Shown here: one piece after another, positions 10,846-58,255 of the stretch | How positions within the stretch are numbered: the first letter of the stretch is position 1 | Layout: each line of letters opens with the position of its first letter | Assembly: GCA_002633005.1 (NCBI GenBank) | Contig: NMRA01000533.1 | Span: 62,001 to 126,000 of the forward strand | DNA: 64,000 nt | Reading direction: 5' to 3' | Source of the DNA: Phoronis australis | Taxonomy: Eukaryota; Animalia; Phoronida | Made by a program: the position numbers and the translations under genes | Notes under the pieces: model-generated | Database searches by the model: none | The model's input: only the letters and a program-made list of their open reading frames with translations | Told to the model about the DNA's origin: nothing

Positions 10846-10875
10846 ATGATTGGCTTGCTGGTTCTCTTTGTTTTG
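10846..10875 (+). CDS. Putative first coding exon (signal peptide, MIGLLVLFVL) of the EGF-Sushi gene
   Basis: AAGATG context, hydrophobic 10-aa stretch, consensus donor TTG|GTGAGT. Ends in phase 0, so a small phase 0-to-1 exon is needed before the EGF exon. Confidence 0.6.
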
Positions 10876-13800
10876 GTGAGTAATTTTAGAAAAGTGAAAA
10901 AGTGGCCCATCTCTTGTGTGTGAGTGCACGTACGTGCGTGTTTGTTCAAATGTGTAACAAGCTGGAACTTTATTTGCATCTCTTTCTCTCTCCCGGGGAC
11001 TTACTCAGTGTGCCTTGGGAATGTCGCCTACCGGTTTGTACGCATTATGAGCTTTCAAGTAGTATAGGTGTGCCATTTCATCGATTTTCAGTGAATCTCA
11101 AGATCCGTCAGAATGAGCTCGTTTGTCTCAAGAACGCAGCTTTGCCCGTTCAACCCCTTCCAAAACGTTATCGTATGCGTGATTACCACTTCATACCCTC
11201 AGATTACTTGAATCAGTACACGTACACATGTACGGAAATGAATGTAGAATCAAAACATATTTTGAAGAATGTAGGTATTTCCTGTCTGTCCTTTTTCCAA
11301 GCGCGACACGTCATGAGCTGTAGCCAAGCAGTGACGAAGTTCACAAGCCTGTGTCTACTGTGCCAGAGAACAGTCTTCGGAGTGTCTTGGGCCAGCAGTC
11401 ACCGCTTAATCACCGCTTAATCATTGTCAGTGGCGGTCATTTTGCTGGTGCGCCTAATTAAACATGTGTCGCTTACTCTAGGCTCTCAAAGGCTTAAGAA
11501 ATGTTAAATTACATGTATGTGATCGAGATCTCTATGCTCGCAGACCAATCTCTTCAGTAGTGTAAATGCTAGTCTACATGTACGCGAGTGACATACCAAG
11601 CACGCTTGAAATGCACTAAACTTTGTAGTTGGATTTTTCATGGTATTGCATGATCTCATTTTTCTTGCACTACGGAACGGCGCCGTTTTGATGTACACGT
11701 AGTTGTGTTTTGAGTACTATAAAAGGTATGACCGTTGTTGTTAATTCTAGCATGCGTGCAGCTGGGCACAGAATGCCCATTCGCTCCTCAGAGTACAAGC
11801 CAGGTTCCACGGAGAAAGATGGGCAGGCACCATGCCTTATCACATGGGAACGAACGTTTTGAACGTTCAAGCATCGGTGACAGCTGCAATGGCGACCGAG
11901 AAGTGCAAATTGCGTTTGTCATGCAGGTATGATGCTTTCCAGATACATGTAGTCAAAATGTGCATGGAATGTCAAAAATGGATAAACGAGCGTAATTTTC
12001 ATGAGACCAACAGTTTCTCTGTTAATCTAAAATGCCCAAAGCATATTTCTTGCAAAAATGACCTACATGTATAATCATTAACGTAGTATCCTAGTATAAC
12101 AATGCTGTGCATCCACAGGTTTGTATTTGGTGGCCAAACTTAAACTATTCTGTTCCATAATAGTAGTTTCTATCATTTATTTTTAGTAAACATTGGTATT
12201 CCTAGTTCACTAAATTGATGGGCATGTCAGGTACACGCAGTAGACTCAGATGCGTACACCTGTACAGAGTAGCCTCTGCTAGTTAATCAACACATATTTT
12301 AATACTGATGCAATGGTTATACCGAGCAGAATTAACTCGATGTTTCAAATGCCAGCCAGGTTCAAAAACAGACATTCACGCTGCATTCCTCATCATTAGC
12401 TTGCAAACAGCATGATTACATGTATATTGCAATCGTGCATATCACGCACGTAATCATTGTCCTGGTATTCCTGCTGAACGGTCTATCTTCAGAGTGGCCC
12501 TCAGAAATCCAAAATAACATCTATGTAAACGAAGTGTGTTCACAGACTTACAATTTATAATAACCGTTCAGTGACGGAAGACGCCACCAAATTTAACGTT
12601 GAGATGTGAGATATTCGTGGAAATATGTTCACGATTTGCTAACTCGAACATTATCTCACACATGAAGGGCGGATCGGATTCACATAAAACTTGCATATGC
12701 TATGCTTTGTCAACGTTCCCTAAACTGCTTTCAGGAATTGCTTTTAAAATGTTTCACCTATGCAAGAGAAACAATCAAATTTAGATATTTTACGATTTTT
12801 ATTTTTATACTCAAATGTTGCATAAAGGGAAAATATCTGATACTTCAAGAAACTGGAAGACGATTTTGAGATACCATTCTAAACATTTAAACTAAATATT
12901 TGTATTATTTATAACGATGTATTCTTAATAAAGTACTCTTACTTTTTGCTAATTTTCGTAAAAACCCAAGGATTCGTGAGCAAGATTACAGATTGATGTA
13001 ACGCTGAAATTGAATTTTTCAAGTTTCTACTTTCAGAAGTTTACACTTTACAACGCTATTTTTGAAATTTTCTAAGTTATTGGCTTAATATTTAATCGTA
13101 GAGTTTCGCGTAGAATCGTTATACAAGGCTACAAACAAAAGGGCTCAATTTTAAGGTGACAATCAAGCCTCACGGTCGATTTCAACCAATCAGTGACACC
13201 TCCCAAATAGCTCGTAAAGTCAGAAGCCCAGACTTGTTCGTGTACTGTTAACGTTTAAGGATGTTTCATTCCAAAAAATGTACCATGATAGAGGTTTTCA
13301 AAAGTGGCATTACACTGTGTTTTAAACAAATGCTAATATTAGTATTTCTTGCGCCTTTAATATCCGAACACTTATTTGCAGTCTCACAATGAAGTCGGAG
13401 GACTCCAAGGGGAAAGTTCTTCACAAGGAAGTTCTTTCTCAATCATTTGACGCTACAACTCAACAAAACGTCACGCGTGGAAAGGATTTCAAATTCTTAA
13501 TGCATTTCAATGAACGGCGCAATTTCCTTGGGGACATGCAGTGTGGGGCCAAATTGTATTACGGAACCAAACATGGACCAGGCCATCGCTTAGTAAAGGA
13601 AGTGAAAACAAAACGATACCGACGGGTGTATGGTTTTGTTCAAAAAAGTGAGTTATTTTGTGTTTGCCATTAAGCTCTATCATTTTCAGATAGTAATTGT
13701 ATGACATTTGTAGAAATTACAGTGCTTCAGGTCGCTCACAGGTGATATTCTCCAATGTATAAAGTGCTTCAATCTTACAAGTTGGACAAGTGAATGTCAC

Positions 13801-14206
13801 ATAGTCTGAAATTAGGAGACTGTTAAAATGAAGATTTCAGCTGTAAAATAAAAGTTTAGAAGTGTTGACTTTGATGCCATCTGGTGAGAGAGTAAATCTA
13901 TGACATATATTATGTCAAATACACCACAGAGGCTTATTGCGACGCCTTCGTGTGACTAAGTTAAAACTCCCAGTGGCAAGATACGGTTTTGATGCGTTCT
14001 TAATTTGTAAATCCACAGTTATGCTAGTTGTCAGTAAAGAGTTTAAGGATATTTGAAGGATCACATCCAGGCATAAAGTACAACAAACACGATGTGTGAA
14101 CTGCGATTACTTGAATTATTGTGGCTTGTTCTCAGTCTCAGTTTTATTTAATACAACAATGTAGTGATATCTAATTTATGTCATCCCACCTGTTCCATTG
14201 TACCAG

Positions 14207-14329
14207 TGGACGAGTGTGTAAAGAAGTTGCAGAAGTGCGACGCAAATGCCGTTTGCATCAAACCCCTGTTTGGAGACTACGTGTGCCAGTGTTCATTTGG
14301 GTACGAAGGCGACGGACTCACCTGTCGAA
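14207..14329 (+). CDS. EGF-like domain exon (xDECVKKLQKCDANAVCIKPLFGDYVCQCSFGYEGDGLTCR)
   Basis: 123 nt between CCAG acceptor and GTAAGA donor, phase 1-1. Six Cys with EGF spacing, including C-x-C-x2-GY-x-GDG-x2-C. Missed by the ORF track. Confidence 0.92.
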
Positions 14330-21659: not shown

Positions 21660-21836
21660 GGAAAGTGTGTGGACCGCCTGATGTCAACCCCAGTTCAACT
21701 GTTAACACTACGTCCGAAGTTTATGAAGGAATATCGAGATATTCTTGTGATGAAGGATACGAAAGATTGGCTGGTGACGAAACGCGTACGTGTGATGCTT
21801 ACGGTGAATGGTCAGGATCACCACTAGTTTGTACTG
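21660..21836 (+). CDS. Sushi/CCP exon 1, divergent (KVCGPPDVNPSSTVNTTSEVYEGISRYSCDEGYERLAGDETRTCDAYGEWSGSPLVCT)
   Basis: 177 nt, TTTTTAG acceptor, GTAAGC donor, phase 1-1. Four Cys, YSC-x2-GY and C-x3-G-x-WSG-x-P-x-x-C CCP signature. Confidence 0.93.
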
Positions 21837-27022: not shown

Positions 27023-27100
27023 GAAAATACTGCGGAAAGCCAGACAACAACAACAATACAGCAGTTAAGGCTAACTCGGGAGTACAACTTGAATGTGCTA
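27023..27100 (+). CDS. Internally deleted Sushi mini-exon (KYCGKPDNNNNTAVKANSGVQLECA), in frame
   Basis: 78 nt with intact ATTATAG acceptor and GTAAGT donor. Equals the 177-nt sister exons minus 99 nt, with no stop codon. Confidence 0.6.
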
Positions 27101-28010: not shown

Positions 28011-28558
28011 NNNNNNNNNNNNNNNNNNNNNNNNNNNNNNNNNNNNNNNNNNNNNNNNNNNNNNNNNNNNNNNNNNNNNNNNNNNNNNNNNNNNNNNNNN
28101 NNNNNNNNNNNNNNNNNNNNNNNNNNNNNNNNNNNNNNNNNNNNNNNNNNNNNNNNNNNNNNNNNNNNNNNNNNNNNNNNNNNNNNNNNNNNNNNNNNNN
28201 NNNNNNNNNNNNNNNNNNNNNNNNNNNNNNNNNNNNNNNNNNNNNNNNNNNNNNNNNNNNNNNNNNNNNNNNNNNNNNNNNNNNNNNNNNNNNNNNNNNN
28301 NNNNNNNNNNNNNNNNNNNNNNNNNNNNNNNNNNNNNNNNNNNNNNNNNNNNNNNNNNNNNNNNNNNNNNNNNNNNNNNNNNNNNNNNNNNNNNNNNNNN
28401 NNNNNNNNNNNNNNNNNNNNNNNNNNNNNNNNNNNNNNNNNNNNNNNNNNNNNNNNNNNNNNNNNNNNNNNNNNNNNNNNNNNNNNNNNNNNNNNNNNNN
28501 NNNNNNNNNNNNNNNNNNNNNNNNNNNNNNNNNNNNNNNNNNNNNNNNNNNNNNNNNN
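28011..28558. other. Assembly gap; further single-N joins at 34919, 38851, 40002 and 41338
   Basis: Runs of n in the sequence. Confidence 1.
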
Positions 28559-28949
28559 ATTAACTTCATAGTGTCTTCACTTCAGAGAAGGTATTGTGAA
28601 AAGATACTGAGATATGATACTGTAAACACATGCTAAAATCATACAAACTGTGTATAAACATGCTAAATGCAAGTTTAGGATGTTTCAGTTATTAAAACAA
28701 ATATGCTTGTTGTTTACTCAATCGTACTTACGCTATTGGGTTACTTTCGGAAAAGGGAAACTGCTCACTGATTCGAGTACCTCTAGTTGAGTAGTTACCA
28801 GGTCTTCAAACTATGTGTAATTGTTCAATCACTATAAAATTCGACTCTATTGACATATATAATAGGTAAAATTAGTCATGAATCTAAGTTTTTGGTCGAT
28901 CTGCCTTGTTTTTCTAAACAAACTACACGTTAGCATTGGATAATTATAG

Positions 28950-29126
28950 GAAAAAAATGCGGAAAGCCAGACAACAACCACAATACAGCTGTTAAGGCTA
29001 ACTCGGAGCTTTATGAAGGAACGGCCCAATATTCATGCAACACAGGATTTGAGCAGTCAGGTGGTAACTCAACACGTACCTGCGACGCTAATGGAAAATG
29101 GACGGGAGTACCACTTAAATGTGCTA
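28950..29126 (+). CDS. Sushi/CCP exon, variant A (KKCGKPDNNHNTAVKANSELYEGTAQYSCNTGFEQSGGNSTRTCDANGKWTGVPLKCA)
   Basis: 177 nt, TAG acceptor, GTAAGT donor, phase 1-1, open frame, 4 Cys + Trp. Confidence 0.9.
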
Positions 29127-31482
29127 GTAAGTTAATATTATTATAAATACTTGGTAGTGTCATATTGCTATCGCTAGCTTGAACACTGATCACACATTCA
29201 ATGTTTGATGACAACTACCCTTTCCAAAGTAGTTCCAACAAAGGCGGTAGGCTACATCATCCATTTCAGAACAGGGAATTTAAAACCAAAATGGCGGTTA
29301 AACTTTTGCAAAGCTTATGCGGCCATATTCCAAACTGGGATATCTACATGTGAGAAAGAGAGCCAAACTTACACTTAAATATCAGTAATTTTCCAAGTGA
29401 CCGAACATATTTCCAGTCTTAAGTGAGGCAGGCATGCGTTTTAGATGTAGACTACATAGTTATGCATGTATATATTCAAATTTTGATGAGGTGATTATTA
29501 ACCTGAGAATATCTAAAAGTTTTTGTGTAAAAGTCAAGTACATTTGGTTCAGTCAACTGTTTCTGAAAATCAAACTACGTCTGAGGCTCATTGTTATCAT
29601 TTTTGTCTTTTGTTGAAGACATTCCTTTTCAAAGAACTGATGCTCATTCCACGAAAATGTGTAAGTTCGAAAGTTGCTTCATGTTCAACTCTGGAAGCAA
29701 ATAGTTTTCGAGAACTCGCAAGTAGTGGGTTATGGCTGCAATCACCGAGTCATAGAAATTCTGGTAAGGGACACGCAAAACACACAATAATTGCATATGG
29801 AACGGACCCCTATATCCATAGAAAACACCGTGATTTAAGCAATTGATTTGAGCTAAGTATCATTGAAAGTGTAACGAAGCAAAAACGGCCAACGCCGAAT
29901 TCAGCGATATTTAAAGGCCTATAGTCCGACTTAAAGAAGAAAAAAGATCTTAAAACCGTTTCAGCCGTTTTTTTGGTTTGAAAGAAACATTAAAAAGCTA
30001 ATATGTATGAATACGTGCAAAAAATTTGAAAAAAAATCGAACGAATAAAACCTTTAAAAGAAATAAAATGAGTGTCATTGTCATACATTTATATATTTCA
30101 ACAACGCATAGGCATTTACAGAAGTCAAAATAAATACAAATGGGGGACACTGGTAGAGTACAGCCGAATTCGAAACGCCGGCGTCCTGCTCTACGAGATT
30201 CGGAAAAAAACAAGAGTGTCATTACAAAAAGCCGAATTACCAACATAAACGACGTGTTCGCGAACTCATTTAACATTTTGCAAGGTTCAAGAAATTTATC
30301 TAAGGAAATCTGGATAAAAAGCTGCCTCCTTGGTTTAGCTGTAAGGAAACTGATGTAGAAATTGATTTGATCACCATAGAAACATATTTGCAAAAATTAA
30401 TTAAGCCTCTTTAAGAGGTTCTTCAGGTAAAACTTTGTACTGCCCGTGGTCAGGCATAGTACCTTATGCGATGGTGTGTCCACTCAATCGGCTTTTGCTT
30501 GAAAACAATAACTTTTTTCTCATTTCCGGATGGGAAAATATGATTAGAATTCACCAACGCTCTTAAAACTGGCCCCAAAATTACCGAATCATGAGACTTC
30601 AATGAATTTTAATGGAAAGTTTTATGAAAATCATAAGACTGATTTCAAATAGAGCAGTTCAATTTCTACATCAATGTGTTTTCCATTTCCTTTAAGCCCT
30701 TGAAACAATTTCGCGAACAAAACCTCTCTTACCAAATAGGGGCTGTTGTGGTTCAAAACATCCATGGTGTTTTAACTTCAAAAAGAAGGCCCCGATCTAT
30801 TTAAATATACGTTTTGAACATACCTCACTGTGATGTATAAACACCTACGTTTTTTCAAGATTGGCGATCCTAGAGTCAAAGGTTTGGTGTTCTCGTAGAA
30901 TGACCGTGAAGTTGCTAATGAAATTCATGGCACGATAAAACATGGAAACTTAGTGCTATACCATGTTTGTAACCCAAATTCCTCTACGAATATTAAAGGA
31001 ATTTTATTTTTCGAAGCAATGAGAATCGAAAAATCATAATGGCCTGCACATTTTCCAAGAAAATTTGTAGACTATGTGCTTAGTAATTGAAATTAACTTC
31101 ATAGTGTCTTCACTTCCGAGAAGGTATTGTGAAAAGATACGGAGATATGACACTGTAAACACATGTTAAAATCATATAAATTGTATATAAATATGCTAAA
31201 TGAAAGTTTTGGATGGTTCAGTTATTTTACCAAATATGATCCTTGTTTACTCAATGGTAGTTACGCTATTGGGTTATTTTCGGAAAAGGGAAATTGCTCA
31301 CTGATTCTAGTACCTCTAGTTGAGTAGTTTGCAGTTCTCCAAACTATGTGTAATTGTTCAATCACTATAAAATTCGATTCTGTTGACATATATAATAGGG
31401 AAAATTAGTCATGAATCTAAGTTTTTGGTCGATCTGCCTTGTTTTTCTAAATAAAGTACACGCTAGCATTGGATAATTATAG

Positions 31483-36537: not shown

Positions 36538-39018
36538 GTAAGTTAATATTATTATAAATAAAAGGTAGTGTCATATTGCTATCGCTAGCTTGAACACTGA
36601 TCACACATCCAATTTGATGACAACTATCCTTTCCAAAGTAGTTCCAACAAAGGCGGTAGGCTACACCATCCATTTCAGAACAGGGAATTTAAAACCAAAA
36701 TGGCGGTTAAACTTTTGCAAAGCTTATGCGGCCATATTCCAAACTGGGATATCTACATGTGAGAAAGAGCGCCAAACGTACACTTAAATATCAGTAATTT
36801 TCCAAGTGACCGAACATATTTCCAGTCTTAAGTGAGGCAGGCATGCGTTTTAGATGTAGACTACATAGTTATGCATGTATATCTTCAAATTTTCATGAGG
36901 TGATTATTAACCTGAGAATATCTAAAAGTTTTTGTGTAAAAGTCAAGTACATTTGGTTCAGTCAACTGTTTCTGAAAATCAAACTACGTCTGAGGTTCAT
37001 TGTTATCATTTTTGTCTTTTGTTGAAAACATTCCTTTTCAAAGAACTGAGGCTCATTCCACGAAAATGTGTAAGTTCAAAAGTAGCTTCATGTTCAACTC
37101 TGGAAGCAAATAGTTTTCGAGAACTCGCAAGTAGTGGGTTATGGCTGCAATCACCGAGTCATAGAAATTCTGGTAAGGGACACGCAAAACACACAATAAA
37201 TGCATGTGGAACGGACCCCTATATCCATAGAAAACACCGTGATTTAAGCAATTGATTTGAGCTAAGTATCATTGAAAGTGGGACGAAGCAAAAACGGCCA
37301 ACGCCGAATTCATCGATATTTAAAGGCCTATAGTCCGACTTAAAGAAGAAAAAAGATCTTAAAACCGTTTCAGCCATTTTTTGGTTTGAAAGAAACATTA
37401 AAAAGCTAATATGTATGAATACGTGCAAAAAATTTGAAAAAAAATCGAACGAATAAAACCTTTAAAAGAAATAAAATGAGTGTCATTGTCATACATTTAT
37501 ATATTTCAACAACGCATAGGCATTTACAGAAGTCAAAATAAATACAAATGGGGGACACTGGTAGAGTACAGCCGAATTCGAAACGCCGGCGTCCTGCTCT
37601 ACGAGATTCGGAAAAAAACAAGAGTGTCATTACAAAAAGCCGAATTACCAACATAAACGACGTGTTCGCGAACTCATTTAAAATTTTGCAAGGTTCAAGA
37701 AATTTATCTAAGGAAATCTGGATAAAAAGCCGCCTCCTTGGTCTAGCTTTAAGGAAACTGATGTAAAAATTGATTTGATCACCATAGAAACATATTTGCA
37801 AAAATTAATTAAGCCTCTTTAAGAGGTTCTTCAGGTAAAACTTTGTACTGCCCGTGGTCAGGCATTGTACCTTATGCGATGGTGTGTCCATTCAATCGGC
37901 TTTTGCTTGAAAACAATAACTTTATTCTCATTTCCGGATGGGAAAATATGATTAGAATTCACCAACGCTCTTAAAACTGGCCCCAAAATTACCGAATCAT
38001 GAGACTTCAATGAATTTTAATGGAAAGTTTTATGAAAATCATAAGACTGATTTCAAATAGAGCAGTTCAATTTCTACATCAACGTGTTTTCCATTTCCTT
38101 TAAGCCCTTGAAACAATTTCGCGAACTAAACCTCTCTTACCAAATAGGGGCTGTTGTGGTTCAAAACATCCATGGTGTTTTAACTTCAAAAAGAAGGCCC
38201 CGATCTATTTAAATATACGTTTTGAACATACCTCACTGTGATGTATAAACACCTACGTTTTTTCAAGATTGGCGATCCTAGAGTCAAAGGTTTGGTGTTC
38301 TCGTGGAATGACCGTGAAGTTGCTAATGAAATTCATGGCACGATAAAGCATGGAAACTTAGTGCTATACCATATTTGTAACCCAAATTCCTCTACGAATA
38401 TTAAAGGAATTTTATTTTTCGAAGCAATGAGAAACGAAAAATCATAATGGCCTGCACATTTGCCAAGAAAATTTGTAGACTATGTGCTTAGTAATTGAAA
38501 TTAACTTCATAGTGTCTTCACTTCCGAGAAGGTATTGTGAAAAGATACGGAGATATGACACTGTAAACACATGTTAAAATCATATAAATTGTATATAAGT
38601 ATGCTAAATGAAAGTTTTGGATGGTTCAGTTATTTTACCAAATATGATCCATGTTTACTCAATGGTAGTTACGCTATTAGGTTATTTTCGGAATAGGGAA
38701 ATTGCTCACTGATTCGAGTACCTCTAGTTGAGTAGTTTGCAGTTCTCCAAACTATGTGTAATTGTTCAATCAATATAAAATTCGATTCTGTTGACATATA
38801 TAATAGGGAAAATTAGTCATGAATCTAAGTTTTTGGTCGATCTGCCTTGTNCTAGTTGAGCAGTTTGCAGGTCTCCAAACCATGTGCAATTGTTCAATGA
38901 CTATAAAATTCGATCCTACTGTCATTTCAAATAGGGATTATTAGTCATGAATCTAAGTTTTTGGTCGATTTACCTTGTTTTTTTAAATAAACTACACGCT
39001 AGCATTGGATAATTATAG

Positions 39019-39195
39019 GAAAAAACTGCGGAAAGCCAGAAAACAAAAACAATACAGCTGTTAAGGCTAACTCGGAGCTTTATGAAGGAACGGCCCAATA
39101 TTCATGCAACACAGGATTTGAGCAGTCAGGTGGTAACTCAACACGTACCTGCGACGCTAATGGAAAATGGACTGGAGTACCACTTGAATGTGCTA
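39019..39195 (+). CDS. Sushi/CCP exon, variant D (KNCGKPENKNNTAVKANSELYEGTAQYSCNTGFEQSGGNSTRTCDANGKWTGVPLECA)
   Basis: 177 nt, intact splice sites, open frame. Confidence 0.9.
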
Positions 39196-41970
39196 GTAAG
39201 TTTATATTATTATAAATACTAGGTAGTGTCATATTGCTATCGCTAGCTTGAACACTGATCACACATTCAATGTTTGATGACAACTGGCCTTTCCAAAGTA
39301 GTTCCAACAAAGATTGTAGGCTACACCGTTCTTTTCAGAACCGGGAATTTAAAACCAAAATTGCGGTTAAACTTCTGCAAAACTTATGCGGCCATATTCC
39401 AAAATGGGATATCTACATTGCACATGTGAGAAAGACCACCAAACTTACACGAAAATATCAGCAACTTTCCAAGTGACCGAACATATTTCGACGTGTTCGC
39501 GAACTCATTGAAGATTTTGCAAGAATTTTGTCGATGGACAAGTTTTGCGTGTAAGTGTGCTGTTTGTAAAATGTTCAGTCACTCCCATGCACAACTAGAC
39601 CATTCACTGGGTAACTAATTTCAGTCAGCATACATCAGACTCAAATCATCATGATCAGAGCCAATTTGATCATCTGTTCAGTTTTTGTCCTGGGATTTGT
39701 GGCCATAGGGTTACACCCTCTTATTGATTCATGTGCCATCGTTTCCTGGAAGGAAATGCTTTGACCAAAGTTCACGAAATTTCTCTAAGGAAATCTAGAT
39801 AAAAAGCTGCCACATTGGGTCTAGCTGTTGTGAAACTGATGTAAACGTTGAATTGATCACCATAGAACAATACTTGCAAAAAATAATGAAGCCTCTTTAT
39901 GAGGTTCTTTTGATAAAACTGCGCACTGCCCGTGGTCAGGCATTGTACCTTATGCGATGGTGTGTCCATTCAATCAGCTGTTGCTTGAAAACAATCACTA
40001 TNATTGCTATCGCTAGCTTGAACACTGATCACACATTCGAATGTTTGATGACAACTAGCCTTTCGAAAGTAGTTCCAATAGAGATTGTAGGCTACACCGT
40101 TCTTTTCAGAACCGGGAATTTAAAACCAAAATTGCGGTTAAACTTTTGCAAAACTTATGCAGCCATGTTCCAAAATGGGATATCTACATTGCACATGTGA
40201 GAAAGACCACCAAACTCACACGAAAATATCAGCAATTTTCCAAGTGACCGAACATATTTCGACGTGTTCGCGAACTCATTGAAGATTTTGCAAGAATTTT
40301 GTCGATGGACACATTTTGCGTGTAAGTGTGCTGTTTGTAAAATGTTCAGTGACTCCCATGCACAACTACACCATTCGCTGGGTAACTAATTTCAGTCAGC
40401 ATACATCAGACTCAAATCATCATGATCAGAGGCAATTTGATCATCTGTTCAGTTTTTGTCCTGCAATTTGTGGCCATAATTTTACACCTTCTTATTGATT
40501 CATGTGTCATCGTTTCCTGGAAGCAAACGCTTTGACCAAAGTTCACGGAATTTCTCTAAGGAAATCTAGATAAAAAGCTGCCACATTGGATCTAGCTGTT
40601 GTGAAACTGATGTAAAAATTGAATTGATCACCATAGAAACATACTTGCAAAAATTAATGAAGCCTATTTATGAGGTTCTTTTGATAAACCTGCGTACTGC
40701 CCGTGGTCAGGCATTGTACCATATGCGATGGTGTGTCAATTCAATTAGCTGTTGCTTGAAATTGGTCACTATTTTCTCATTTCTGGTTGGGTAAGCATAA
40801 TGTGAATTTACCAATTATCTTAAAACTGGCCCCGAAATTACTGAATCAGGAGACTCTAATGAAATTTAATGGGAAGTTTTATTAAATTCCCAAGACTGAT
40901 TTCAAATAGAGAAGTTCATTTTGTACATCAATATATTTTTCATTTCCTTTAAGCCTCTTTAAACAATTTCGCTAACTTAACCACTTTTATCAAAAATGGG
41001 ATGTTTTGGCTCAAAACATCCATGATGTTTTAACTTCAAAAATAAATGCTCCAATCTATTTAAATAGACGTTTTGAACATACCTCACTGTGATGCATAAC
41101 CACATACGTTTTTTCAAGATCGGTGATCCTAGAGTCAAAGGTTGCCTGTTCTCGAGGAATGACAGTAAATTTGCTAATGAAATACATGGCTCGATAAAAC
41201 ATGGAAATTTAGTGTTAAACCATATTTTAAACCCAAATTCCTTAACGGATACTAAAGGAATTTTTTTTCGAAGCAATGAGAATCAAAAAAAATCATAATG
41301 GCTTGCAAATTTGCAAAGAAAATTTATAAACTATATGNTTTGAACATACCTCACTGTGATGCATAACCACATACGTTTTTTTAAGATCGGTGATCCTAGA
41401 GTCAAAGGTTGCCTGTTCTCGAGGAATGACAGTAAATTTGCTAATGAAATTCATGGCTCGATAAAACATGGAAATTTAGTTTTAAACCATATTTTAAACC
41501 CAAATTCCTCAACGAATATTAAAGGAATTTTTTTTTTCGAAGCAATGAGAATCAAAAAAAATCATAATGGCTTGCAAATTTGCAAAGAAAATTTATAAAC
41601 TATATGCTTAGTAATTGCAATTAACTTCATGGTGTGTTCACTTCCGGGAAGGTATTCTGAAAAGATACTGAGATATGATACCGTAAACACATACTAAAAT
41701 CATATAAAGTGTATATAAATATGCTAAATGAAAGATTTTGATGTTTCAGTTACGCTAGTGTCTTACTTTCGGATAGGGAAATTGCTCACTGAATCGAGAA
41801 CCTCTAGTTGAGCAGTTTGCAGGTCTCCAAACCATGTGCAATTGTTCAATCACTATAAAATTCGATCCTACTGTCATTGAAATTATGGATTATTAGTCAT
41901 GAATCTAAGTTTTTGGTCGATCTACCTTGTTTTTCTAAATAAACTACACGCTAGCATTGGATAATTATAG

Positions 41971-42147
41971 GAAAAAACTGCGGAAAACCAGAAAACAAAA
42001 ACAATACAGCTGTTAAGGCTAACTCGGAGCTTTATGAAGGAACGGCCCAATATTCATGCAACACAGGATTTGAGCAGTCAGGTGGTAGCTCAACACGTAC
42101 CTGCGACGCTAATGGAAAATGGACTGGAGTACCACTTGAATGTGCTA
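41971..42147 (+). CDS. Sushi/CCP exon, variant E (as D but GGSST instead of GGNST)
   Basis: 177 nt, intact splice sites, open frame. Confidence 0.9.
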
Positions 42148-43876: not shown

Positions 43877-44053
43877 GAAAAAGCTGCGGAAAGCCAGACA
43901 ACAAAAACAATACATATGTTAAGGCTAACTCGGAGCTTTATGAAGGAACGGCCCAATATTCATGCAACACAGGATTTGAGCAGTCAGGTGGTAACGCAAC
44001 ACGTACCTGCGACGCTAATGGTAAATGGACTGGAGTACCACTTGAATGTGCTA
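43877..44053 (+). CDS. Sushi/CCP exon, variant F (KSCGKPDNKNNTYVKANSELYEGTAQYSCNTGFEQSGGNATRTCDANGKWTGVPLECA)
   Basis: 177 nt, intact splice sites, open frame. Confidence 0.9.
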
Positions 44054-46715: not shown

Positions 46716-46892
46716 GAATTAACTGCGGAAAGCCAGACAACAACCTCAATACCACTGTTAAAGTTAGTTCGGAAGTTTTTGAAGGAACAGTCCAATACTC
46801 ATGCGGCACATGATATGAGCATTCAGGCTCTAACCTAACACGTACCTGCGACACCGGTGCTAACTGGACAGGAGTACCACTTGAATGTTCTA
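46716..46892 (+). pseudogene. Dead Sushi pseudo-exon
   Basis: Homologous 177 nt with an in-frame TGA at 46811-46813 (GGA in sisters) and the donor GTAAGT mutated to GGAATT. Confidence 0.88.
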
Positions 46893-48697: not shown

Positions 48698-49739
48698 TGT
48701 GTTTCCACATTACCAATAACGAAATATTCAAACTTGCTTTTTACCTTTGTCACATTTCTGGTATGTTTTTTCTGATTTCCTGAATGCTTCAAAGGATAAG
48801 CTTTAAAACCTACACCCACCGCATGACGATTTGCATGAATGGATTACTTGATTCCTTGCTCTGGAGCAAAAATAGTTTAACGGAGACTCCTTTAAAAATC
48901 CGGAGATGTTCTTCTAATAAAGGGGTTCATTGTCAACGTGAACATCGGGAAGAATTTTTCCAACCCGTTCTGTGGGCTATTTTTGCCAAATTATTTAGGA
49001 AGCTCTAACTAAAAAAATAAAGGCAATATTTTTTACACAGAACATTTGGACACGTATCACCAAAATATATGAACGCATATTATTTTCAAGATCGGTGATC
49101 TTAAAGTCGAACTTTTTGGTGCTCTAGTGGAATGACAGTAAGTTGCTAATGGATGACGTCATTGGCTTGAAAACACAAGGAAATTAAATTATAAGTCGTA
49201 ATTGAAACCCAGGCTCATCTAAGGATGTGAAAAAAATCAGTTTTCGAATTAAGAAGATTCGAAACATAATTTCAGACTGCAAATTTGCTAAGGGAATGTC
49301 TAGGTATGAGTTTAGTCATTTACAATATTTGTTCATGTTTTAAATTGCAGTGAAAGTGTTTTAAATTTATACTGAAATATTATATTGTGATACGAAATCT
49401 AAATATCAAATAAGTTACATATTGCGGATAATTTCGAATACACTACATGACACTTTTGTAGTGTTCGAATTTTTTCCCAACTATTCTGGATATTTTACTC
49501 AATGGTGGTCAGGTTTTATGACTTCTTTCAGAAAAGTGAATATAGCTAAGCATTCTTATTTATTTCTGGTTGAGTACTTTTTTGTTGAGTTCCAACGCAT
49601 GTGAAACCACTCAGTGAGCGTAATTTTTTATTCTCTCGTCATTTAAAATAAAGCTTATTACACATGCGTCTTAATTTTGGTCGTTCTTCCTGATTTACCT
49701 TAAAAAACTACACCTTATGCTTATTTTTGGATATCATAG

Positions 49740-49913
49740 GGAAAAAATGCGGAAAGCCAGTCTTCAACCTCAATACCACTGTTGAAGTTAGCTCGGAACT
49801 TTATGGAGGAACAGCCCAATACTCTTGTGACACAAGTTATCTGCAGACAGGCGGTAACCTAACACGTACCTGCAACGCTGAAGGCAACTGGACAGGAGTA
49901 CCACTTGAATGCA
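49740..49913 (+). CDS. Sushi/CCP exon, subtype 2 copy 1 (KKCGKPVFNLNTTVEVSSELYGGTAQYSCDTSYLQTGGNLTRTCNAEGNWTGVPLEC)
   Basis: 174 nt, CATAG acceptor, GTAAGT donor, phase 1-1, open frame. Confidence 0.9.
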
Positions 49914-52779
49914 GTAAGTCAATAATCTCTAAGAAATAATATTTAATGTCTCATTGCTATTGCTAGACTTTGATATACATTGATTGCGAAGCCAATGAGT
50001 TATAACTTGTTGACAACATCCTCTAACCAAGTCTGTCACGAGTAGTTCCCACAATGTTGGTAGCTACTGCACACCACCCAAAGCAGATCGACGAAGTTAA
50101 ATGCAACGTTACTGAGGAAACTTTGGATAGCTTGTGCGGCCATGTTCCAAGTTCAGGATTCCACAAGGGTGGGAAAGAGTAGCAACCATTTCAGGAAATT
50201 AACTGCGGTGTTCCTGGTAACCAAACCCAAATTCCGTCTTAAGTTAGGGCATGTATTACATCGACTGTATGCCATTCACGGTTCTGTTAGCCTATTCCTT
50301 GATGTCAGTACTTTCATAGCGTTTTAACGTAGACTCCATATTTTCATATACATCATATTTCATTAGGTTATTTTGAACCTGAGAATAGTTCAACTCTATG
50401 TTTAAATCATGTGAGCAAATCCATTTGGTTGAGTCAGTTACTTCTTAAAATTAGGAAACGTGCGATATCCAATGAAATAATTTCAACTTTACTGAAAACG
50501 CTTTAGGTACAAATATACATGTACATTGCCCTTGGGAGGCGTGGTAGAAAGTGTTATACATGTACATGCAAATTTTCACGAAAGTGAGAACAAAAAGAGT
50601 CTTTCGGTTGACCCAATTTCTATTTTGTATCAAACAGTTATCAATAGGGAGGGGAAAGGTATGTAAAGTTGCACTGAATGTCATCAATCAATCACATATC
50701 CTACACTCGATCGTTAGAACGCTGCATCGTCTGCTGACAATATCAGCGGTTTTTAATGTGTAAAAAGGCGGATCTACGGCTGCTTTCAGGGGGTCTAAAC
50801 CCACCCCATTGGGGCAGGATCAAAAATTCAAAAATCGTGACCTGCAAAACAAAATGGTACCGCCAGCATATTCAAACACTAAGAAAACCAACTCAAAAAT
50901 TAGGTGGGATCACCCTGAAAACACAATATCTTGGCATTGTGATTGGCCGTTATCACGAAAAGCAGCGCATTTCAAGTTTTTGTGGCTAATAGGGAATTCT
51001 CACAGAATTTCATTGTTCGTGCCCTTCCGTCGACACTTCTAACATGTAAGTAGCCAAGAACTTAAGACGGTTCCCTCGGGGAAAAAGCTGGTCTGAAGCT
51101 GATTTTTTATAACTACCGTATTTACTCTAAGATACGTTTTGATTTAATTAGGCGAAATAATGTAGTACAACAACCCGCGACGTGCAACGTTTTTAAATCA
51201 TCTGTCTTGTGACGTCATGCTATTACACACAACACGTTTGTAACTGAATTTTGTCAGGCGTATAATAAAGTTGTCTAGTGCAATAATCATACAGTGTACA
51301 TGTAAACTGTTTTATTTAAAACACTCCTTTCCCGAAGGACTTCCGTTGTTGCGGGCGCTGTGGTCTTGTCGCGAGTCAGTTTCGGATAAACCTTAGCAAA
51401 TTAAGTCTATATAAGGAATGAATCCGGAAGAAGCATTCCATTGACAAGGTGTCTGTACTTTCTCAACAGGGTATGCGGGACTCGCACAGTATTCAATAGG
51501 CTTCTTATGGAGGCCTGGTTCCGACCTCTGCACTGACCGTCTTCCTACAGGCAATAAGCACTACTGCCGTCTTCTTTATAGGGAATTACGGCAGCACGTT
51601 ACGCTTGATGAAACATCCTTGACAACGGGTGTTATTTGACTACATTACATTTTAACAGCCAGTAAGACCGTTGCTGATTTTCTGCCAAGTAAGCGCTCCG
51701 CTAACACGTCCGGGTACTATTCACACGGCAGTTGCTTACTCCAAGGGGGTACTTTGCACCGGCTTCAAGAAATAGCAATAAAGATAACAGATTTGCTGAT
51801 GTAGAATTTTTTTTTAATGTTATTTATTACCTAAACGAATACTGTTGTCGTACTTTGACATACCCTCTCTATCGGTGAGTCATTGCTAACCTCAGTAGCC
51901 GGATGTTGGCTGCAGGAGATGCGACGTACTTCACAAACTAATGGTTATGCATTAAATAACATTCTGATATGCCACGAAGATGTAAAATTTGAGCAATAAA
52001 TAATCAACAATGTATAAAAAGAAATAATGAGCATCAAAACAGCCAAACAAAGCAACACGCTGATACATGTATTTTTGTCAATAAGTTTCCAAGGACAACT
52101 TGACTGTCTTTTAGGAATCATTACAGATCTGAAGCCCACAAACTCAAGTCACTGAAGTAGACGAGAATAGTCGATGATACTCTGATCCCGGCTGAGGCAC
52201 AAAACTTTTCTCAAAAGGGCTCTTAGGTTGATAACAGAATGGACTTGAACATGATGCCATGTGGCATATTACTTTTGAACTAGGTTTTCCTTTGAGATAC
52301 GGATTTTAAATACGCACAATCTACCGTTTACCGAGAAAATATTAGCAGAACCATTTTGGAAATGCACAATCGCCAGGAAATCTGGGACAAATGTTACGTT
52401 GCTTTCACTCAAATCGAAACACCGGTCAGGCACAGAGAAGTTGCGCATGTACACAGACTCCATTCATTCACCTAGTCGCGATAATGTTGCGTCAGCGACG
52501 AGTATATATGATAGAAAGGTCCCGTGGATAACAAAAATGGAACGTAGATTTAATCCTGAGACAGATATGTGTTTGTGTGCACGCATACGCCCATTCAGAA
52601 CCAAAGGCATAAGTCGCCTCACGTCTCTGTGACTTTTTTCACAAACACAGTTAGTTGTGAAGTTATAACAAAAACAGAAGTGCCGGAGGCGTGGTGTCAT
52701 TTGCGGCGCAACACACGTGTGCAGGCTTCATGGTTGGGCCATTGAGCTCAACATCTGGGTTAAAGCACGTGACTTTCAT

Positions 52780-53551
52780 TATGGTTCTTGGTGAAGGAAG
52801 TTTTCAAGCCCGCCAGTCTCCTTTAAGAAAACGAACAGACACTTAAATTTGTTGCCATTCACTATATGTTGTTGGCATGTAACAGTGTCATCCATTAGGT
52901 TGCTCCTTAGCATATGAAAATCTGGGCAATACTCTACCAAGTGTTTAGGGGATTCTATGTCAGTACTACACTCAGGTGACACTGTGTTCCCCATATCCCC
53001 GGTAATGCGTCTGTGTCGGGCTAGGTTGCAGTGGCCCATCAAAATTTGAATGAAGTACATGTACGTTACTTATGCCCAACCTATCTGCACTAAGACGGCT
53101 TTTTAATTTTTTTGGTTATCCTGCACCTTCAGTAAGATACCGGGATTGCAGGTTCAGGCACAAAATGTTGAACGCTTGCTATTTTCTTTGATAGTCTGAC
53201 TGATTTCCCATTGACATCATTACTCACATGAGCCCTGACTCGGTGCATGTTGAAGGTTCTTTCAATTGCAAGCTTGTTAAAGTCATTAATAAAGCATTAA
53301 CGCAAACAGAGTTGACCCTTGGTTTTTTGCTGCCTGTCTATCTGAACTTGAAAATTGGTTATTGGCTGAATACCCTGCTCGGTATAATATTGTTGTGCCA
53401 GTAGAGCAGCTTTATTTATTGCAGCGATCTCAGCCTGGAACACCGTGGCAAGATTGCCTAGCGATGCAAAGCTTTCTTTATCTGCAACAGAAAGGCTTGC
53501 AACATAGACTCCATCACCCGTCTGGCCATTCCCGTCCGTACAACAAACCAT
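52780..53551 (-). mobile_element. Decayed 3' part of an RNase H-bearing non-LTR retrotransposon (I-group, R1/LOA-like)
   Basis: TDG..G-x-GVY..LGNLATVFQAEIAAI (RNase H) and LMGHCNLARH..EC..ESPKHLVEYCP (C-terminal CCHC region). Confidence 0.8.
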
Positions 53552-54557
53552 TTCATTCTGCGAAATAAATACTCACTCAAATTCCTTAATTGGGATTATT
53601 TGAAACTTCGATGTTGAGATCTCATGCACACAACTTGTTTTAATTACCAATTCGATTTTTGAACCTACATGTATTTTGTACTTGGCTTTCATATCAATTC
53701 CCTAGCGCTTTTCTAACAAAGAACTGTTAACCTGCGTTGAGGTGGACCGCAATGCACCAGATGTCCCACTTCATACAGTGTATGCTGACTCCGAGCGATT
53801 TTTAGTTAGAGTATACATGTATGCATTAGAGATCGACTTGGACTACATGTAAATTAAATGGTTTTGTGATAATTAATGAATTGTTGAAGTAATGAACGTA
53901 CCTAAGCGAGGTATAGGTTATCTCGACCAAATACAAGGTTTCACCAAATAATTATTCGAAGTCATTGAGATATTCACGTCTTGCCATATAATTGACTTTT
54001 TCTCAGCTTCGGTAAATCGTTTTAATTTGAAATTGGGAACGTAATTTCCCGAAAACGGGATAGTGGATATGGTTCAAACTTTCCAAATTTGAATATTCAT
54101 TCATGAATCCCAAAAAATGCTGTTAAAATTTTAATACAAAGGCCCAGGTTCTGTGTAATGTAACAAAGACGAATACGACTTGTATTTTTTACCTAAATTC
54201 CTTATGTTTTGCGAACTCATTTGCCATAAATACCTAATGAAAAGAATAAACAAAAGTTCCTGACAAGGTTTTTGGTTATGAAGTTTTCATTTAAAAAGGT
54301 TTATTAAAATCGACCAAGCTGTTATTTAACTATGAGTGTACCTTTCATAAATAAGTGTTTTTTATTTCACAAAGTTATAAACGTAATAATAATAACGACG
54401 CGTAAACATCAAACACATTTGATGTTTCCTGATTTTTTTCTTTCATCAATTAAGTACTTTTACGAGTTGACAAAACTTCGTGTTTTGACTTTTGTGTTAT
54501 AATGCAGACCTCTTAGTAAGGCTTGAAGTATCCATTCGGTAAGTACTGGTCTACGTA

Positions 54558-54704
54558 TAGGCGGATCCAGGGGTTCAAGGGGTCCAGACCCTTTTCCCTT
54601 GATTTTGATGATATCAAATCTATAATTTTCAAATTGTTGACTCAGACTCTTATTTTGAAACTCCTTGACTCGACCTCCCCCTTAAAAACTATTGGTACCC
54701 CCTG
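54558..54704. mobile_element. Short hAT-like MITE (sister copy ~62923-63069)
   Basis: TAGGCGGATCCAGGGG...GGTACCCCCTG, imperfect GC-rich inverted ends, ~150 bp. Confidence 0.45.
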
Positions 54705-54867
54705 TTACGTTTGATCTTGTGTCGCCCTCAAGCTGAGTATTGAAAGTAGTCCGTTCTCGCTCAAAAACTGAGTCGTAAAGGCGCACCACAGCATCATTCA
54801 TTTGCACCTGTATCGTGCAAGTCTATTATAGCTAATAGTATTAAACTTCTGTCTGATCACGCGCAAG

Positions 54868-55078
54868 GTTAAACCTGGTTTAAGATCTTAATCCAAGTCT
54901 ACGTGTAAGTAGTATATAACCCGTTGGTGAAATGACCAGGTCTAAATTGGAGTTAAACCAGATTTTATTAGACTACTGGTCTAAAAGTTAAACCACGTTT
55001 ATGAAATGCATATTTTCTTTAAACCTGGTCTATGCCCAGATTAAACCAAGTTTAACTTTAAACCACGTTTATGGAATC
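54868..55078. repeat. Array of TTAAACC(A/T)GGTTTAA-like palindromes (sister copy ~63232-63445)
   Basis: TTAAACCTGGTTTAA, TTAAACCAAGTTTAA and TAAACCACGTTTA repeated. Probably a non-autonomous transposon arm. Confidence 0.55.
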
Positions 55079-58000
55079 AGCAGCACATTTATTCCTTTAC
55101 TCTAACGATGTCTTATGGATGAAAACTCAAAGTTCGATTTGATTACGTCAAGACAGAAGTTCGTCAGCACCGAAATAAATGGGAGGTTATGGCCCCCCAT
55201 TCCCCTATGGCGTGCTGCCTATGCACGATTATTTTTCAACAGGCATAAAATGCATTGAACGTCTTTAAGGACAACCCCATACCTGAAACTGATTAATTAC
55301 AATACAGAGACAAATCCAGCGACAGTGAATATGATTCTTGATGAACTGCCTATCGTTCAACTGAGAATTACACTGATTTTATCGCGAACAACTCTTCAAG
55401 TAATGTTCGAGACTTTTCAAGAAAAGTATTCAAGTTTCTTACTTGGATGTGCATTTCTTTTTCGTTTGCTTTTAATTTCATCAAAATCTGCGATGCCATT
55501 GATGAATAGTCTACTTATTCCTATGAGAAGTGCCCAATGAGTTGACCTTGCACCCTTCTAAAAAGGTTGAAATTGCTTCGAAATAAATCGTTTTTGATTG
55601 AAAATCCAATTTGGTGTAGGTATGATCATGTGACACTTATTCAGGCACTTTAGCCTCATAGCTTCATATCTTTATTGTCGTGCCTGTCACGGGTTAGGTA
55701 TGCGCGACATCTGTTGCTTAGAGGTAATAAAGAACAAAAAAGGGGAACAAGCAAAGTGATAGAATCAACATTTTGTCTTATTCAGTGCGCGACATTATTA
55801 CTATTTTGTTTCCACACTCGATTAGTTGAACTCTACAAGCACAATCAGTTCACCCAACGTCTTTTAAAACATCGGTGTGGAGGACAGGGCCACGCCCTAA
55901 CCTATTTGATGTCAGATATCACATGACATCCGATTTGACCTACCATGTGACACAGAAATGGGACCTTGTGGAACAATGATGAACGAAACACAGAATTCCG
56001 TGCGTGGGCATGAATGCGTATGCCAGGCCAGAAATTTATATATCACATAGCCACCACTTACTCACGCCTTTAATGCATTGTAATTGTTTGTGCTTAATCA
56101 CAGGATCGGAATTTTTTTTTCTTCGATCACTGCCCATTTTAATGATTTGCAATTATTCAAGTCAAATGAGGTCGCCATGCTAGTTACAGTAAATTGAAAA
56201 GGTTTTTCAAATATCAAGCAATGGGAATGACAGAATGTTATGACGTCGGTTTCATTATTTTAACCAGTGAGAAACCATTAACATTACACGTAGCACTGAG
56301 AACGAGTGTAGATTCGACATTGCTATCTTTCCCGACGACTTCCGGATACATCCATGACCTTGATCTTCTGTCGAGGTCGCACTCCCATCGGTCCAACTAA
56401 ACCTATTGCATAATGATTTGTGTTGTCTTTTTCACTTCCTTCGGGTAACCGGACGACGCCTCTTCCAGTTCCACACTTGACCTTTCATCCTTCACCTTTC
56501 ACCTGTGACCTTTGAACTAAGCGCCTCCCAAACGGGGCGCCTAAACAAATTACAATACCACTAACGCCCGGTTTCACACAGATCTGTGACTTTGTTGCAT
56601 TAGCACGATAAAGTATCTTTCCGGTCCTCATTTTGTGTATATACAATTATTTTCAATTACGTGTGGGCTGGGAGCGTACAGAGATTATGACCGGGGCCAG
56701 ATTGTGCTTGAGCACATGTTTCAAGTCGACAAACGACGGGGTTGTTTTCACTTGAACTGTGAGTACATTTGAAATGGAAACGTGTATTCAGAGCGAGTAA
56801 GTTGCTTAAGGAATCAAATATCACCCAGAGTAAAAGTGAGGACATGGTCTGGTCTTCAACAAAGTTGGATATACCGAAACAAAATGAAAGTTTTCAGCCG
56901 AATTCACATAAGTGTACATATAATAGAAATATGTAAAATATTTCACACCCTGTTTTGCAAATCTACAAATGTAGATGAATTCTAAAATAAGCTGGAAAAG
57001 AACAAACTATCACCAAGAAGTACAAAGTAAGGTAACTGAACACACCTGCAGATGTCTCAAGTTATAATTTAGTGTAAAACAAAAAATGTGCCGAAAATTA
57101 CATTTTAGATTTAGTTGATAATCTCGCCCTCACAAACTTTATACTTGGAAATGCAACACAGAGCTCGCATGATCACGCATTGGCTTGATGTTGTTGAACA
57201 ATGCACCTGATGGCGTACGATAGTCAAACGCTTCCTTCGGTTAGATGTTCTTCTATTAAAGGGTTCATTGTCAACGTGAACATCGGGAAGAATTTTTCCA
57301 ACCCCTTCTGTGGGCTATTTTTGCCAAATTATTTAGGAAGCTCTAACTAAAAAAATTAAGGCAATATTTTTTACAAATGAACATTTGGACACGTATCACC
57401 AGGATATATGAACGCATATTATTTTCAAAATCGGTGATCCTAAAGTCGAACTTATTGGTGCTCTAGTGGAATGACAGTAAGTTGCTAATGTATGACGTCC
57501 TTGGCTTGAAAAAACAAGGAAACTAAATGATTAGCCGTAATTGAAACCCAGGCTCCTATAAGGATATGAAAAAAAAAACAGTTTTCGAATTAAGAAGATT
57601 CGAAACATAATTTCAGAGTGCAAATTTGCTAAGGGAATGTGTAGGTATGAGTTTAGTAAATGGCATTATTTTTTTCATGTTTTCAATTGCAGTGAAAGTG
57701 TTTTCAATTGATACTGAATTATTATATTGTGATACGAAATCTAAAAATCAAATAAGTTACATATTGCGGATAATTTCAAATACGCTACATGAAAGTTTTT
57801 GGATATTCGAATTTTTTCCCAACTATTCTGGATATTTTACGCAATGGTGGTCAGGTTTTTTGACTTCTTTCACAAAAGTGAATATTGCTTAGCATTCTGA
57901 TTTATTTCTGGTTGAGTACAATTTTTGTTGAGTTCCAAAGCATGTGAAACCACTCAGTGAGCGTATTTTTTATTCTCTCGTCACTTAAAATAAAGCTTAT

Positions 58001-58081
58001 TACACATGCGTCTTAATTTTGGTCGTTCTTCCTGATTTATCTTAAAAAAATACACTACATGCTTATTTTTGGATAATTTAG

Positions 58082-58255
58082 GGAAAACATGCGGAAAGCC
58101 AGTCATTAACCTCAATACCGCTGTTGAAGTTACCTCGGAACTTTATGGAGGAACAGCCCAATACTCTTGTGAAACAAGATATCTGCAGACAGGCGGTAAC
58201 CTAACACGTACCTGCAACGCTGAAGGAAACTGGACAGGAGTACCACTTGAATGTA
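58082..58255 (+). CDS. Sushi/CCP exon, subtype 2 copy 2 (KTCGKPVINLNTAVEVTSELYGGTAQYSCETRYLQTGGNLTRTCNAEGNWTGVPLEC)
   Basis: 174 nt, TTTAG acceptor, GTAAGT donor, phase 1-1, open frame. Confidence 0.9.

What the first reader, a model, noticed from the sequence alone, without database searches (positions are those of the whole stretch)
10846..58255. EGF-tipped protein gene with an actively expanding cassette array of Sushi/CCP exons (candidate variable recognition system)
Seen: signal peptide, one EGF, then at least 12 Sushi exons, each a symmetrical phase 1-1 module, so any subset splices in frame. The array includes identical twins, point variants, a deleted copy, a dead copy and two subtypes, which shows birth and death at exon level within one gene. 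Established: tandem CCP arrays occur in complement regulators (CR1, factor H) and selectins; homogenised repeat arrays occur in gamete-recognition receptors (abalone VERL, urchin EBR1); duplicated-exon diversification occurs in Dscam. I do not recognise this architecture as a named orthologue. Inference: a lineage-specific immune, allo- or gamete-recognition or adhesion protein whose length or composition varies by allele and/or splicing.
Basis: partly seen in the sequence, partly recalled or inferred. Interest (0 to 1): 0.85.

Follow-up and report, generated by a model that had tools for sequence, protein, structure and literature searches.

The report
Growing Sushi stalk, unknown head domain
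An expressed invertebrate gene carries a recently multiplied run of near-identical Sushi-domain exons that its RNA joins head to tail, likely making a long spacer stalk for an unidentified front domain rather than a Dscam-like set of swappable sensors; such stalks are common in bivalves and resemble human CR1.

Summary
The exons are real: one EGF exon and 12 phase 1-1 Sushi exons (10 intact, one internally deleted, one dead). RNA shows core Sushi exons joined head to tail (6 and 3 reads in two runs), so they are not strictly one-per-transcript. Copies differ by 0-10 of 174 bases, pN/pS 0.88, and are mosaics of neighbours' introns: unequal crossing-over, no sign of diversifying selection. The array crosses five assembly gaps, so the count is uncertain; DNA depth is about 6-7 times the flanks, meaning about 7 core copies per haplotype or 3-4 if both haplotypes were merged. 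Homogenised Sushi arrays are common: 47 of 150 hits have them, and one RefSeq gene is annotated with 59-residue module skipping. The C-terminus was not found in the window. Verdict: likely a length-variable spacer stalk of the CR1/LPA kind. The scan found similar exon-intron arrays on other DNA (e1-9839153, e1-9947902).

The parts
10846..10875 (+). Exon 1 coding part: start of a predicted signal peptide, phase 0 donor GTGAGT
   Evidence: sense RNA in its bin in run X5 (0.54)
11751..11926 (+).
   Evidence: open frame and phases; only phase-bridging chain found; sense RNA 0.57 in X5 bin
13382..13647 (+).
   Evidence: sense RNA 1.19 (X5) and 0.40 (X6) in its bin; low-confidence model with strands
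14207..14329 (+). EGF exon, phase 1-1
   Evidence: PF12947 E 5.5e-10
21660..21836 (+). Sushi S1, old divergent module (63-71 of 174 nt different from the others)
27023..27100 (+). Sdel: core-type exon with 99-nt in-frame deletion removing two of four cysteines and the tryptophan; splice sites intact
28950..29126 (+). Core Sushi S2 (identical to S5)
   Evidence: sense RNA in bin 1.78 (X5), 3.54 (X6)
31483..31659 (+). Core Sushi S3
33395..33571 (+). Core Sushi S4 (upstream intron groups with S7/S8, downstream intron with Sdel)
36361..36537 (+). Core Sushi S5, twin of S2 in a 2.9-kb block 98.4% identical; recent duplicate or second haplotype
39019..39195 (+). Core Sushi S6 on a 1150-base contig between two single-N gaps
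41971..42147 (+). Core Sushi S7
43877..44053 (+). Core Sushi S8; RNA joint from exon end back to exon start
46716..46892 (+). Dead Sushi copy: in-frame TGA and lost GT donor
   Evidence: RNA depth 0 (X5) and 1.16 (X6) in its bin
49740..49913 (+). Sushi S9, second subtype, 174 nt
   Evidence: sense RNA 4.33 (X5), 2.8 (X6)
58082..58255 (+). Sushi S10, second subtype, in the second copy of an 8.3-kb block
48904..64000 (.). Tandem block duplication, period 8339, about 86-97% identical per 200 columns, running off the window end
28011..41338 (.). Five assembly gaps (28011-28558, 34919, 38851, 40002, 41338) inside the core array

Best explanation
This gene encodes a likely secreted or cell-surface protein in which an unidentified ~140-residue head and one EGF module sit on a stalk of Sushi modules whose exons are spliced head to tail, and the stalk was likely lengthened by unequal crossing-over of 1.9-3 kb exon-plus-intron units. 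Shown: exon anatomy and phases, sense-strand transcription, core-to-core RNA joints, mosaic intron ancestry, dead and deleted copies. Inferred: phase 1-1 symmetry lets any unit be gained, lost or skipped without a frameshift, so copy number can drift; the near-identical modules, each with 1-3 N-glycosylation sequons, act as a spacer or repeated weak-binding surface; binding specificity would lie mainly in the single-copy head, EGF and S1. Ten modules would span roughly 35-40 nm (module length recalled, not measured). Length alleles and occasional module skipping are expected by-products and are untested here.
For: RNA joint 44053 to 43877 'goes back 177': 6 reads from 5 starts in X5, 3 reads from 3 starts in X6, none in the DNA contigs of X1. 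Estimated RNA depth on core exons 6-13 against 0-3.8 on exons 2, 3, EGF and S1 (bin means scaled to exon length). S2-S3-S4 lie on one gap-free contig. X1 DNA depth at three positions shared by most core copies is 45-55 against 7-9 on unique contigs. Intron trees disagree: S4 groups with S7/S8 upstream (100/99) and with Sdel downstream (99/98). Core pN 0.039, pS 0.044. 47 of 150 poly-Sushi hits hold at least one module pair at 80% identity or more; named examples include Mytilus trossulus, Solemya velum, Dreissena polymorpha, Mercenaria mercenaria and Mactra antiquata. CR1 precedent: PMC3265835 (passages).
Against: Read counts are very small (under 20% of each run read), and no head-exon joint appeared among the 15 of 118 joints shown, where repeats filled the table. 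In X6 only 3 core-core joints were seen at an estimated depth of about 13, so many junctions are unaccounted for. A single-exon circular RNA gives the same joint. pN/pS near 1 with 8 of 12 codons carrying amino-acid changes in residues 2-13 is not strong purifying selection. No last exon, membrane anchor or ligand was identified. RNA may partly come from a paralogue: X1 depth doubles over 12472-14343.
Confidence: 0.62

Rival explanations
1. The assembly merges two haplotypes: the real array holds about 3-4 core modules per chromosome, and the S2/S5 twins and perhaps S9/S10 are alleles. The stalk model still holds, but the 'active expansion' is overstated.
For: Five N gaps, three with 95-99% overlapping flanks. 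The S2 and S5 blocks are 98.4% identical and each touches a gap. A contig matching the single-copy Sdel upstream intron at 7 of 8 diagnostic sites has depth 13.9, about twice the 7-9 baseline, and depth is 14-20 over 12472-14343, so 7-9 may be haploid depth.
Against: Most unique stretches, including the promoter/exon 1 region, show one contig at 7-9 and no second haplotype at 90% likeness. The 932-base segment behind Sdel recurs at 98.8% behind S4 in a different gap-free context, which needs a recent duplication or haplotypes of different composition. S9 and S10 lie on one gap-free contig.
Confidence: 0.3
2. The Sushi array is itself a variable recognition surface: alleles and cassette skipping change which module variants are displayed, and selection favours new variants.
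For: All modules are phase 1-1. Amino-acid changes cluster in residues 2-13 (8 of 12 variable codons) and pN/pS is 0.88. Two X5 reads join a core exon end to an exon start absent from the window that continues like S9. A RefSeq poly-Sushi gene has 10 of 12 shorter isoforms lacking exact multiples of 59 residues.
Against: Variants differ by 0-8 non-synonymous changes of about 130 sites; pN does not exceed pS on average; older comparisons give dN/dS 0.39-0.68, except 1.04 for the dead copy against S9. No skip joint among the 15 of 23 joints shown. The two variant reads are under the tool's three-read threshold.
Confidence: 0.12
3. Dscam-like mutually exclusive splicing: one Sushi cassette per transcript.
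For: Tandem homologous exons of equal phase; earlier notes report mutually exclusive exon arrays elsewhere in this genome (unchecked).
Against: Core-to-core joints in two RNA runs; more RNA on core than on head exons; no dispersed docking/selector-type complement among the 25 longest of 27 inverted repeats; near-identical cassettes would add little diversity.
Confidence: 0.04
4. A complement-regulator-like protein (CR1/factor H type) in which repeated Sushi triplets bind a C3-like protein and copy number sets avidity.
For: Tandem Sushi modules; the best PDB sequence matches are beta-2-glycoprotein I, CR1, CR2, C1s, DAF; a 7.4-kb higher-order unit (S2-S3-S4, then S5) resembles a long homologous repeat in layout.
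Against: Those PDB matches are generic and weak per module. CR1's ectodomain is entirely Sushi (PMC3265835), whereas this protein has a head and an EGF. Regulatory units are three different motif-bearing modules (PMC6683126); here neighbours are 86-98% identical.
Confidence: 0.07

Closest known systems
Human complement receptor 1 (CR1) long-homologous-repeat copy-number alleles (PMC3265835, passages read)
   Same: Tandem Sushi modules; intragenic duplication of exon-plus-intron blocks changes protein length in frame.
   Different: CR1's unit is 18 kb and seven distinct modules with C3b/C4b sites, and its ectodomain is all Sushi. Here the unit is one 177-nt exon per 1.9-3 kb, modules are near-identical, a head and EGF precede them, and alleles are not shown.
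Human LPA kringle IV type 2 coding VNTR (PMC11462820, start of abstract in search listing)
   Same: Domain exons multiplied with their introns in homogenised tandem units that short reads cannot resolve.
   Different: Different domain; 1-40 units per allele are documented for LPA, while allele variation is untested here.
Bivalve poly-Sushi gene models named 'SVEP1-like' or 'CSMD3-like' (XP_063413798 Mytilus trossulus; XP_053392084 Mercenaria mercenaria; XP_053396459-71, organism name cut in the output; KAL5007819 Solemya velum; KAH3700415 Dreissena polymorpha; KAL4233501 Mactra antiquata)
   Same: Internally homogenised Sushi runs; annotated isoforms lacking whole 59-60-residue modules; several have a non-Sushi head before the run.
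   Different: Only 31-45% identical to these modules; no match to this head among the 171 proteins held; these are automatic names, not orthologues, with no tested function.
Vertebrate SUSD1, lungfish XP_043917007
   Same: Signal peptide, EGF modules, then an expanded run of 12 Sushi modules with some near-identical neighbours.
   Different: Three EGFs, no extra head, Fn3-like domain and membrane segment at the end; orthology not shown.
Selectins (recalled)
   Same: Order head - one EGF - Sushi stalk.
   Different: The head has no C-type lectin match in Pfam; membrane anchor not found.
Abalone VERL (PMC8830517, passages read)
   Same: Domain repeat expansion in an extracellular invertebrate protein.
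   Different: VERL has 23 ZP-N domains and a known sperm ligand; nothing here links the gene to gametes.

Membership tests
Sushi/CCP domain (PF00084) | Pfam match above cut-off with four cysteines and tryptophan | tested here: met
   5 of 5 Sushi exons scanned pass the cut-off; four Cys and Trp invariant in 10 of 10 intact modules
Intragenic coding tandem array (CR1/LPA kind) | Exon and flanking intron duplicated together in tandem, frame-preserving | tested here: met
Intragenic coding tandem array (CR1/LPA kind) | Copies included together in one transcript | tested here: met
   core-to-core joints, 6 and 3 reads; circular RNA not excluded
Intragenic coding tandem array (CR1/LPA kind) | Copy number differs between alleles | tested here: inconclusive
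   one DNA individual only; two reads suggest an exon variant absent from the window
Dscam-type mutually exclusive exon array | One cassette per transcript | tested here: not met
Dscam-type mutually exclusive exon array | Divergent cassettes encoding different binding surfaces (recalled) | tested here: not met
   0-10 of 174 nt differences among core exons
Dscam-type mutually exclusive exon array | Docking site/selector RNA pairing (recalled) | tested here: inconclusive
   no such pattern among the 25 longest of 27 inverted repeats at seed 11, length 20; shorter or gapped pairings would be missed
Selectin | N-terminal C-type lectin domain (recalled) | tested here: not met
   exons 2 and 3, scanned separately, match no Pfam family at E 0.01 (exon 2 also none at 0.1)
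Selectin | Single EGF followed by Sushi repeats | tested here: met
Selectin | Transmembrane segment and short tail | tested here: inconclusive
   no convincing anchor exon among candidates after S9/S10; gene probably continues past the window
Regulator of complement activation (CR1, factor H) | Ectodomain made only of Sushi modules | tested here: not met
   head and EGF precede the array; definition from PMC3265835
Regulator of complement activation (CR1, factor H) | M5-M3-M1-M2 motif order over three modules (PMC6683126) | not testable with these tools
   motif matrices are in figures and supplements that I did not see (passages only)
Gamete-recognition receptor (VERL, EBR1) | Egg-coat or gonad expression and a gamete ligand | not testable with these tools
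   tissues of runs X5-X7 are coded
SVEP1 / CSMD / SUSD1 orthologue | VWA-pentraxin, CUB, or multi-EGF plus Fn3 architecture | tested here: inconclusive
   none of these in the part of the gene inside the window; 3' end not seen

The most novel reading that the evidence does not exclude
The ~140-residue head is a new binding fold, and the gene is a polymorphic self/non-self or pathogen sensor whose reach and avidity are tuned by alleles that differ in number and kind of Sushi exons (including exons alive in one animal and dead in another) and by module skipping.
Probability: 0.12. Interest if true: 0.7.

Novelty: new member of a known kind. Interest (0 to 1): 0.3.

Why it matters
It is a compact snapshot of exon birth, deletion, death and homogenisation in one invertebrate gene, and RNA shows the copies are strung together rather than swapped. 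That places it with CR1/LPA-type length-variable proteins, which gene models suggest are common in bivalves; my searches found no paper devoted to such Sushi arrays in molluscs. The mechanism is known. The open point is the head, which has no match in any search run here and probably carries the function.

Tried and rejected
No whole genome is held for this window, so paralogues and the 3' end could not be searched. Homologue search with the Sushi alignment among longer proteins gave 1 hit in 2722 candidates, an unrelated poly-Sushi protein. Searches with exon 3 and exon 2 gave 0 of 12 and 0 of 6 candidates at E 10; these are weak negatives. Exon 3 against PDB sequences: none. Exon 3 in metagenome contigs: 0 of 171 pattern matches confirmed. 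ESM Atlas: only unnamed clusters at 0.78 and 0.87, below recognition thresholds. Exon 3 folded alone: mean pLDDT 53, five short strands; best structural Z 4.5, uninformative. The head spans two exons and was not folded as a whole, so its fold is open. No RNA holder was listed in the run search; the RNA runs came by species label. Run X7 showed no reads in the bins of exons 1-3 (apart from 0.06 in one intron bin), EGF, S1 or S2 and was left out of the second lay; X8 showed nothing on S9 or the dead copy. The first lay was swamped by transposon reads at 16.2-20 kb. My first exon-chain filter (pyrimidine fraction 0.6) missed exon 3; I relaxed it to 0.5 after seeing this and re-ran the controls. 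A frameshift reading that joins exon 1 directly to exon 3 was dropped once exon 2 was found. A short candidate last exon near 52115 has no support beyond an acceptor-like site, and the S9/S10 block shows no conservation peak marking another exon. Literature search for all six of sushi, invertebrate, concerted evolution, tandem, alternative splicing, exon: 0 papers.

Full report
Observation. A six-frame search with the first Sushi exon found 12 Sushi-type exons on the + strand. All start after AG, are 177, 174 or 78 bases long and are phase 1-1; 11 end in GTAAG, and the twelfth has a GG donor and an in-frame TGA. Pfam confirms the EGF exon and the five Sushi exons scanned. Core exons S2-S8 differ by 0-10 of 174 bases, S9/S10 form a second subtype and S1 is an old outlier.

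Two missed exons. Exon 1 ends in phase 0 and the EGF exon begins in phase 1. Exons at 11751-11926 (phase 0-2) and 13382-13647 (phase 2-1) bridge them and give 257 residues without a stop through S1. This is the only such chain in the 3.3-kb interval. A two-exon chain arose in 0 of 30 control stretches and 8 of 1000 Markov shuffles, and a one-exon bridge in 87 of 1000; the acceptor filter was relaxed after it first missed exon 3. The protein therefore begins with a predicted signal peptide and about 140 residues that match nothing in Pfam, the protein collection, PDB sequences or the Atlas when each exon is searched alone. These are weak negatives for a split, fast-evolving domain.

Is the array real? 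It crosses five N gaps. Three have flanks overlapping at 217/219, 260/266 and 728/769. The S2 and S5 blocks are 98.4% identical over 2884 bases and both touch gaps. Two more units stop at a gap before or after their exon. Against collapse: S2-S3-S4 share one gap-free contig, and S7-S8-dead-S9-S10 another. DNA run X1 matches the window without differences on its long contigs and may be the assembly's own source, so it is not independent. In it, unique contigs have depth 7-9 and three positions shared by most core copies have 45-55, about 6-7 fold. The tool warns that summed contig depth is not copy number. Whether 7-9 is diploid or haploid depth is unresolved: most unique stretches show a single contig at that depth, but 12472-14343 and the Sdel upstream intron show about twice as much. 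So there are about 7 core copies per haplotype, or 3-4.

Expression and splicing. Runs X5-X7 are raw RNA reads with the same species label, of which 18-19% was read. X5 and X6 show sense-strand reads on core and S9-type exons; X7 shows none on the exon bins covered. Laid on S8, reads go from the exon's last base back to its first base: 6 reads from 5 starts in X5, 3 from 3 in X6, none in DNA contigs. With several near-identical exons in tandem this is the expected trace of core-to-core splicing; a one-exon circle would look the same. Rough depth on core exons (6-13) exceeds that on exons 2, 3, EGF and S1 (0-3.8), though counts are tiny and 3' bias could contribute. The dead copy has 0 and 1.16. 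No skip joint and no S9-to-S10 joint was among the 15 of 23 joints shown. Two X5 reads run from a core end into an exon start absent from the window that continues like S9: a lead for allelic difference, under the tool's threshold.

How it evolves. Trees of upstream and downstream introns disagree: S4 groups with S7/S8 upstream and with Sdel downstream, and S7 groups with S3/S6 downstream (S6 left out of the upstream tree and S8 out of the downstream tree for lack of alignable flank). Units are mosaics, as expected from unequal crossing-over or conversion. Among six distinct core exons pN is 0.039 and pS 0.044: near-neutral on few changes, with 8 of 12 amino-acid-changing codons in residues 2-13. 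Older comparisons give dN/dS 0.39-0.68, and 1.04 for the dead copy against S9. This suggests weak constraint, not diversification. S9 and S10 sit in an 8.3-kb tandem block that runs off the window with no conservation peak; no anchor exon was found.

Comparison. A phmmer search with S6 gave 3447 proteins at E 0.001; the best 150 are poly-Sushi proteins at 29-45% identity, none an orthologue. Of 151 proteins held, 150 had modules by my profile and 47 of these had at least one pair at 80% identity or more among their first 25 modules. I looked up ten chosen for that property or for an EGF-Sushi layout: five are named bivalves, one lungfish SUSD1, three have the organism cut off, one is unnamed. 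In one RefSeq gene 10 of 12 shorter isoforms lack exactly 59, 118, 177 or 295 residues, so module skipping in such arrays is already annotated. CR1 alleles differ by intragenic Sushi-block copies (PMC3265835, passages); LPA has 1-40 units (PMC11462820, listing); VERL has 23 ZP-N domains (PMC8830517, passages). Selectin and Dscam features are recalled. Earlier scan notes describe like arrays in other genomes and call this genome a probable mollusc; I did not test the taxon.

Verdict. A real, expressed gene with a young Sushi exon array that is spliced in tandem and likely serves as a spacer stalk (0.62). The Dscam-like reading is contradicted; the allelic or combinatorial recognition reading is open but unsupported (0.12). 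New member of a known kind; interest 0.3, mostly for the unidentified head.

Noticed in passing
window 16200-20000: Cluster of high-copy repeats in the EGF-S1 intron (X1 depth up to 10,000; RNA on both strands), including a 218-bp tandem pair at 16355-16796 and two 80%-identical ~770-bp elements at 17863-18603 and 18664-19438.
   Followed up: no
window 12472-14343: DNA depth is about twice that of neighbouring unique sequence and contigs break inside the EGF exon: a second haplotype or a paralogous copy of the exon 3-EGF region.
   Followed up: partly
window 44054 to 49765 (reads of run X5): Two reads show a Sushi exon start not in the window, with a core-type beginning and an S9-like continuation; it could be an intact allele at the dead-copy position or a conversion product.
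   Followed up: partly
window 47912-48635: 38-nt inverted arms 648 bases apart, MITE-like, in the intron before S9.
   Followed up: no
window 44068-44430 and 45410-46385: High-copy insertions directly behind S8 and inside a decayed array unit; that unit (44429-45410) has lost its exon.
   Followed up: no
window 3533-4068: Palindromic AT-rich minisatellite with an ~18-base unit.
   Followed up: no
window 7360-7760: By eye, a decayed integrase-like coding fragment upstream of the gene; not searched.
   Followed up: no
P0001, P0069: Long EGF plus poly-Sushi proteins that look bacterial by sequence style (inference), among the hits.
   Followed up: no
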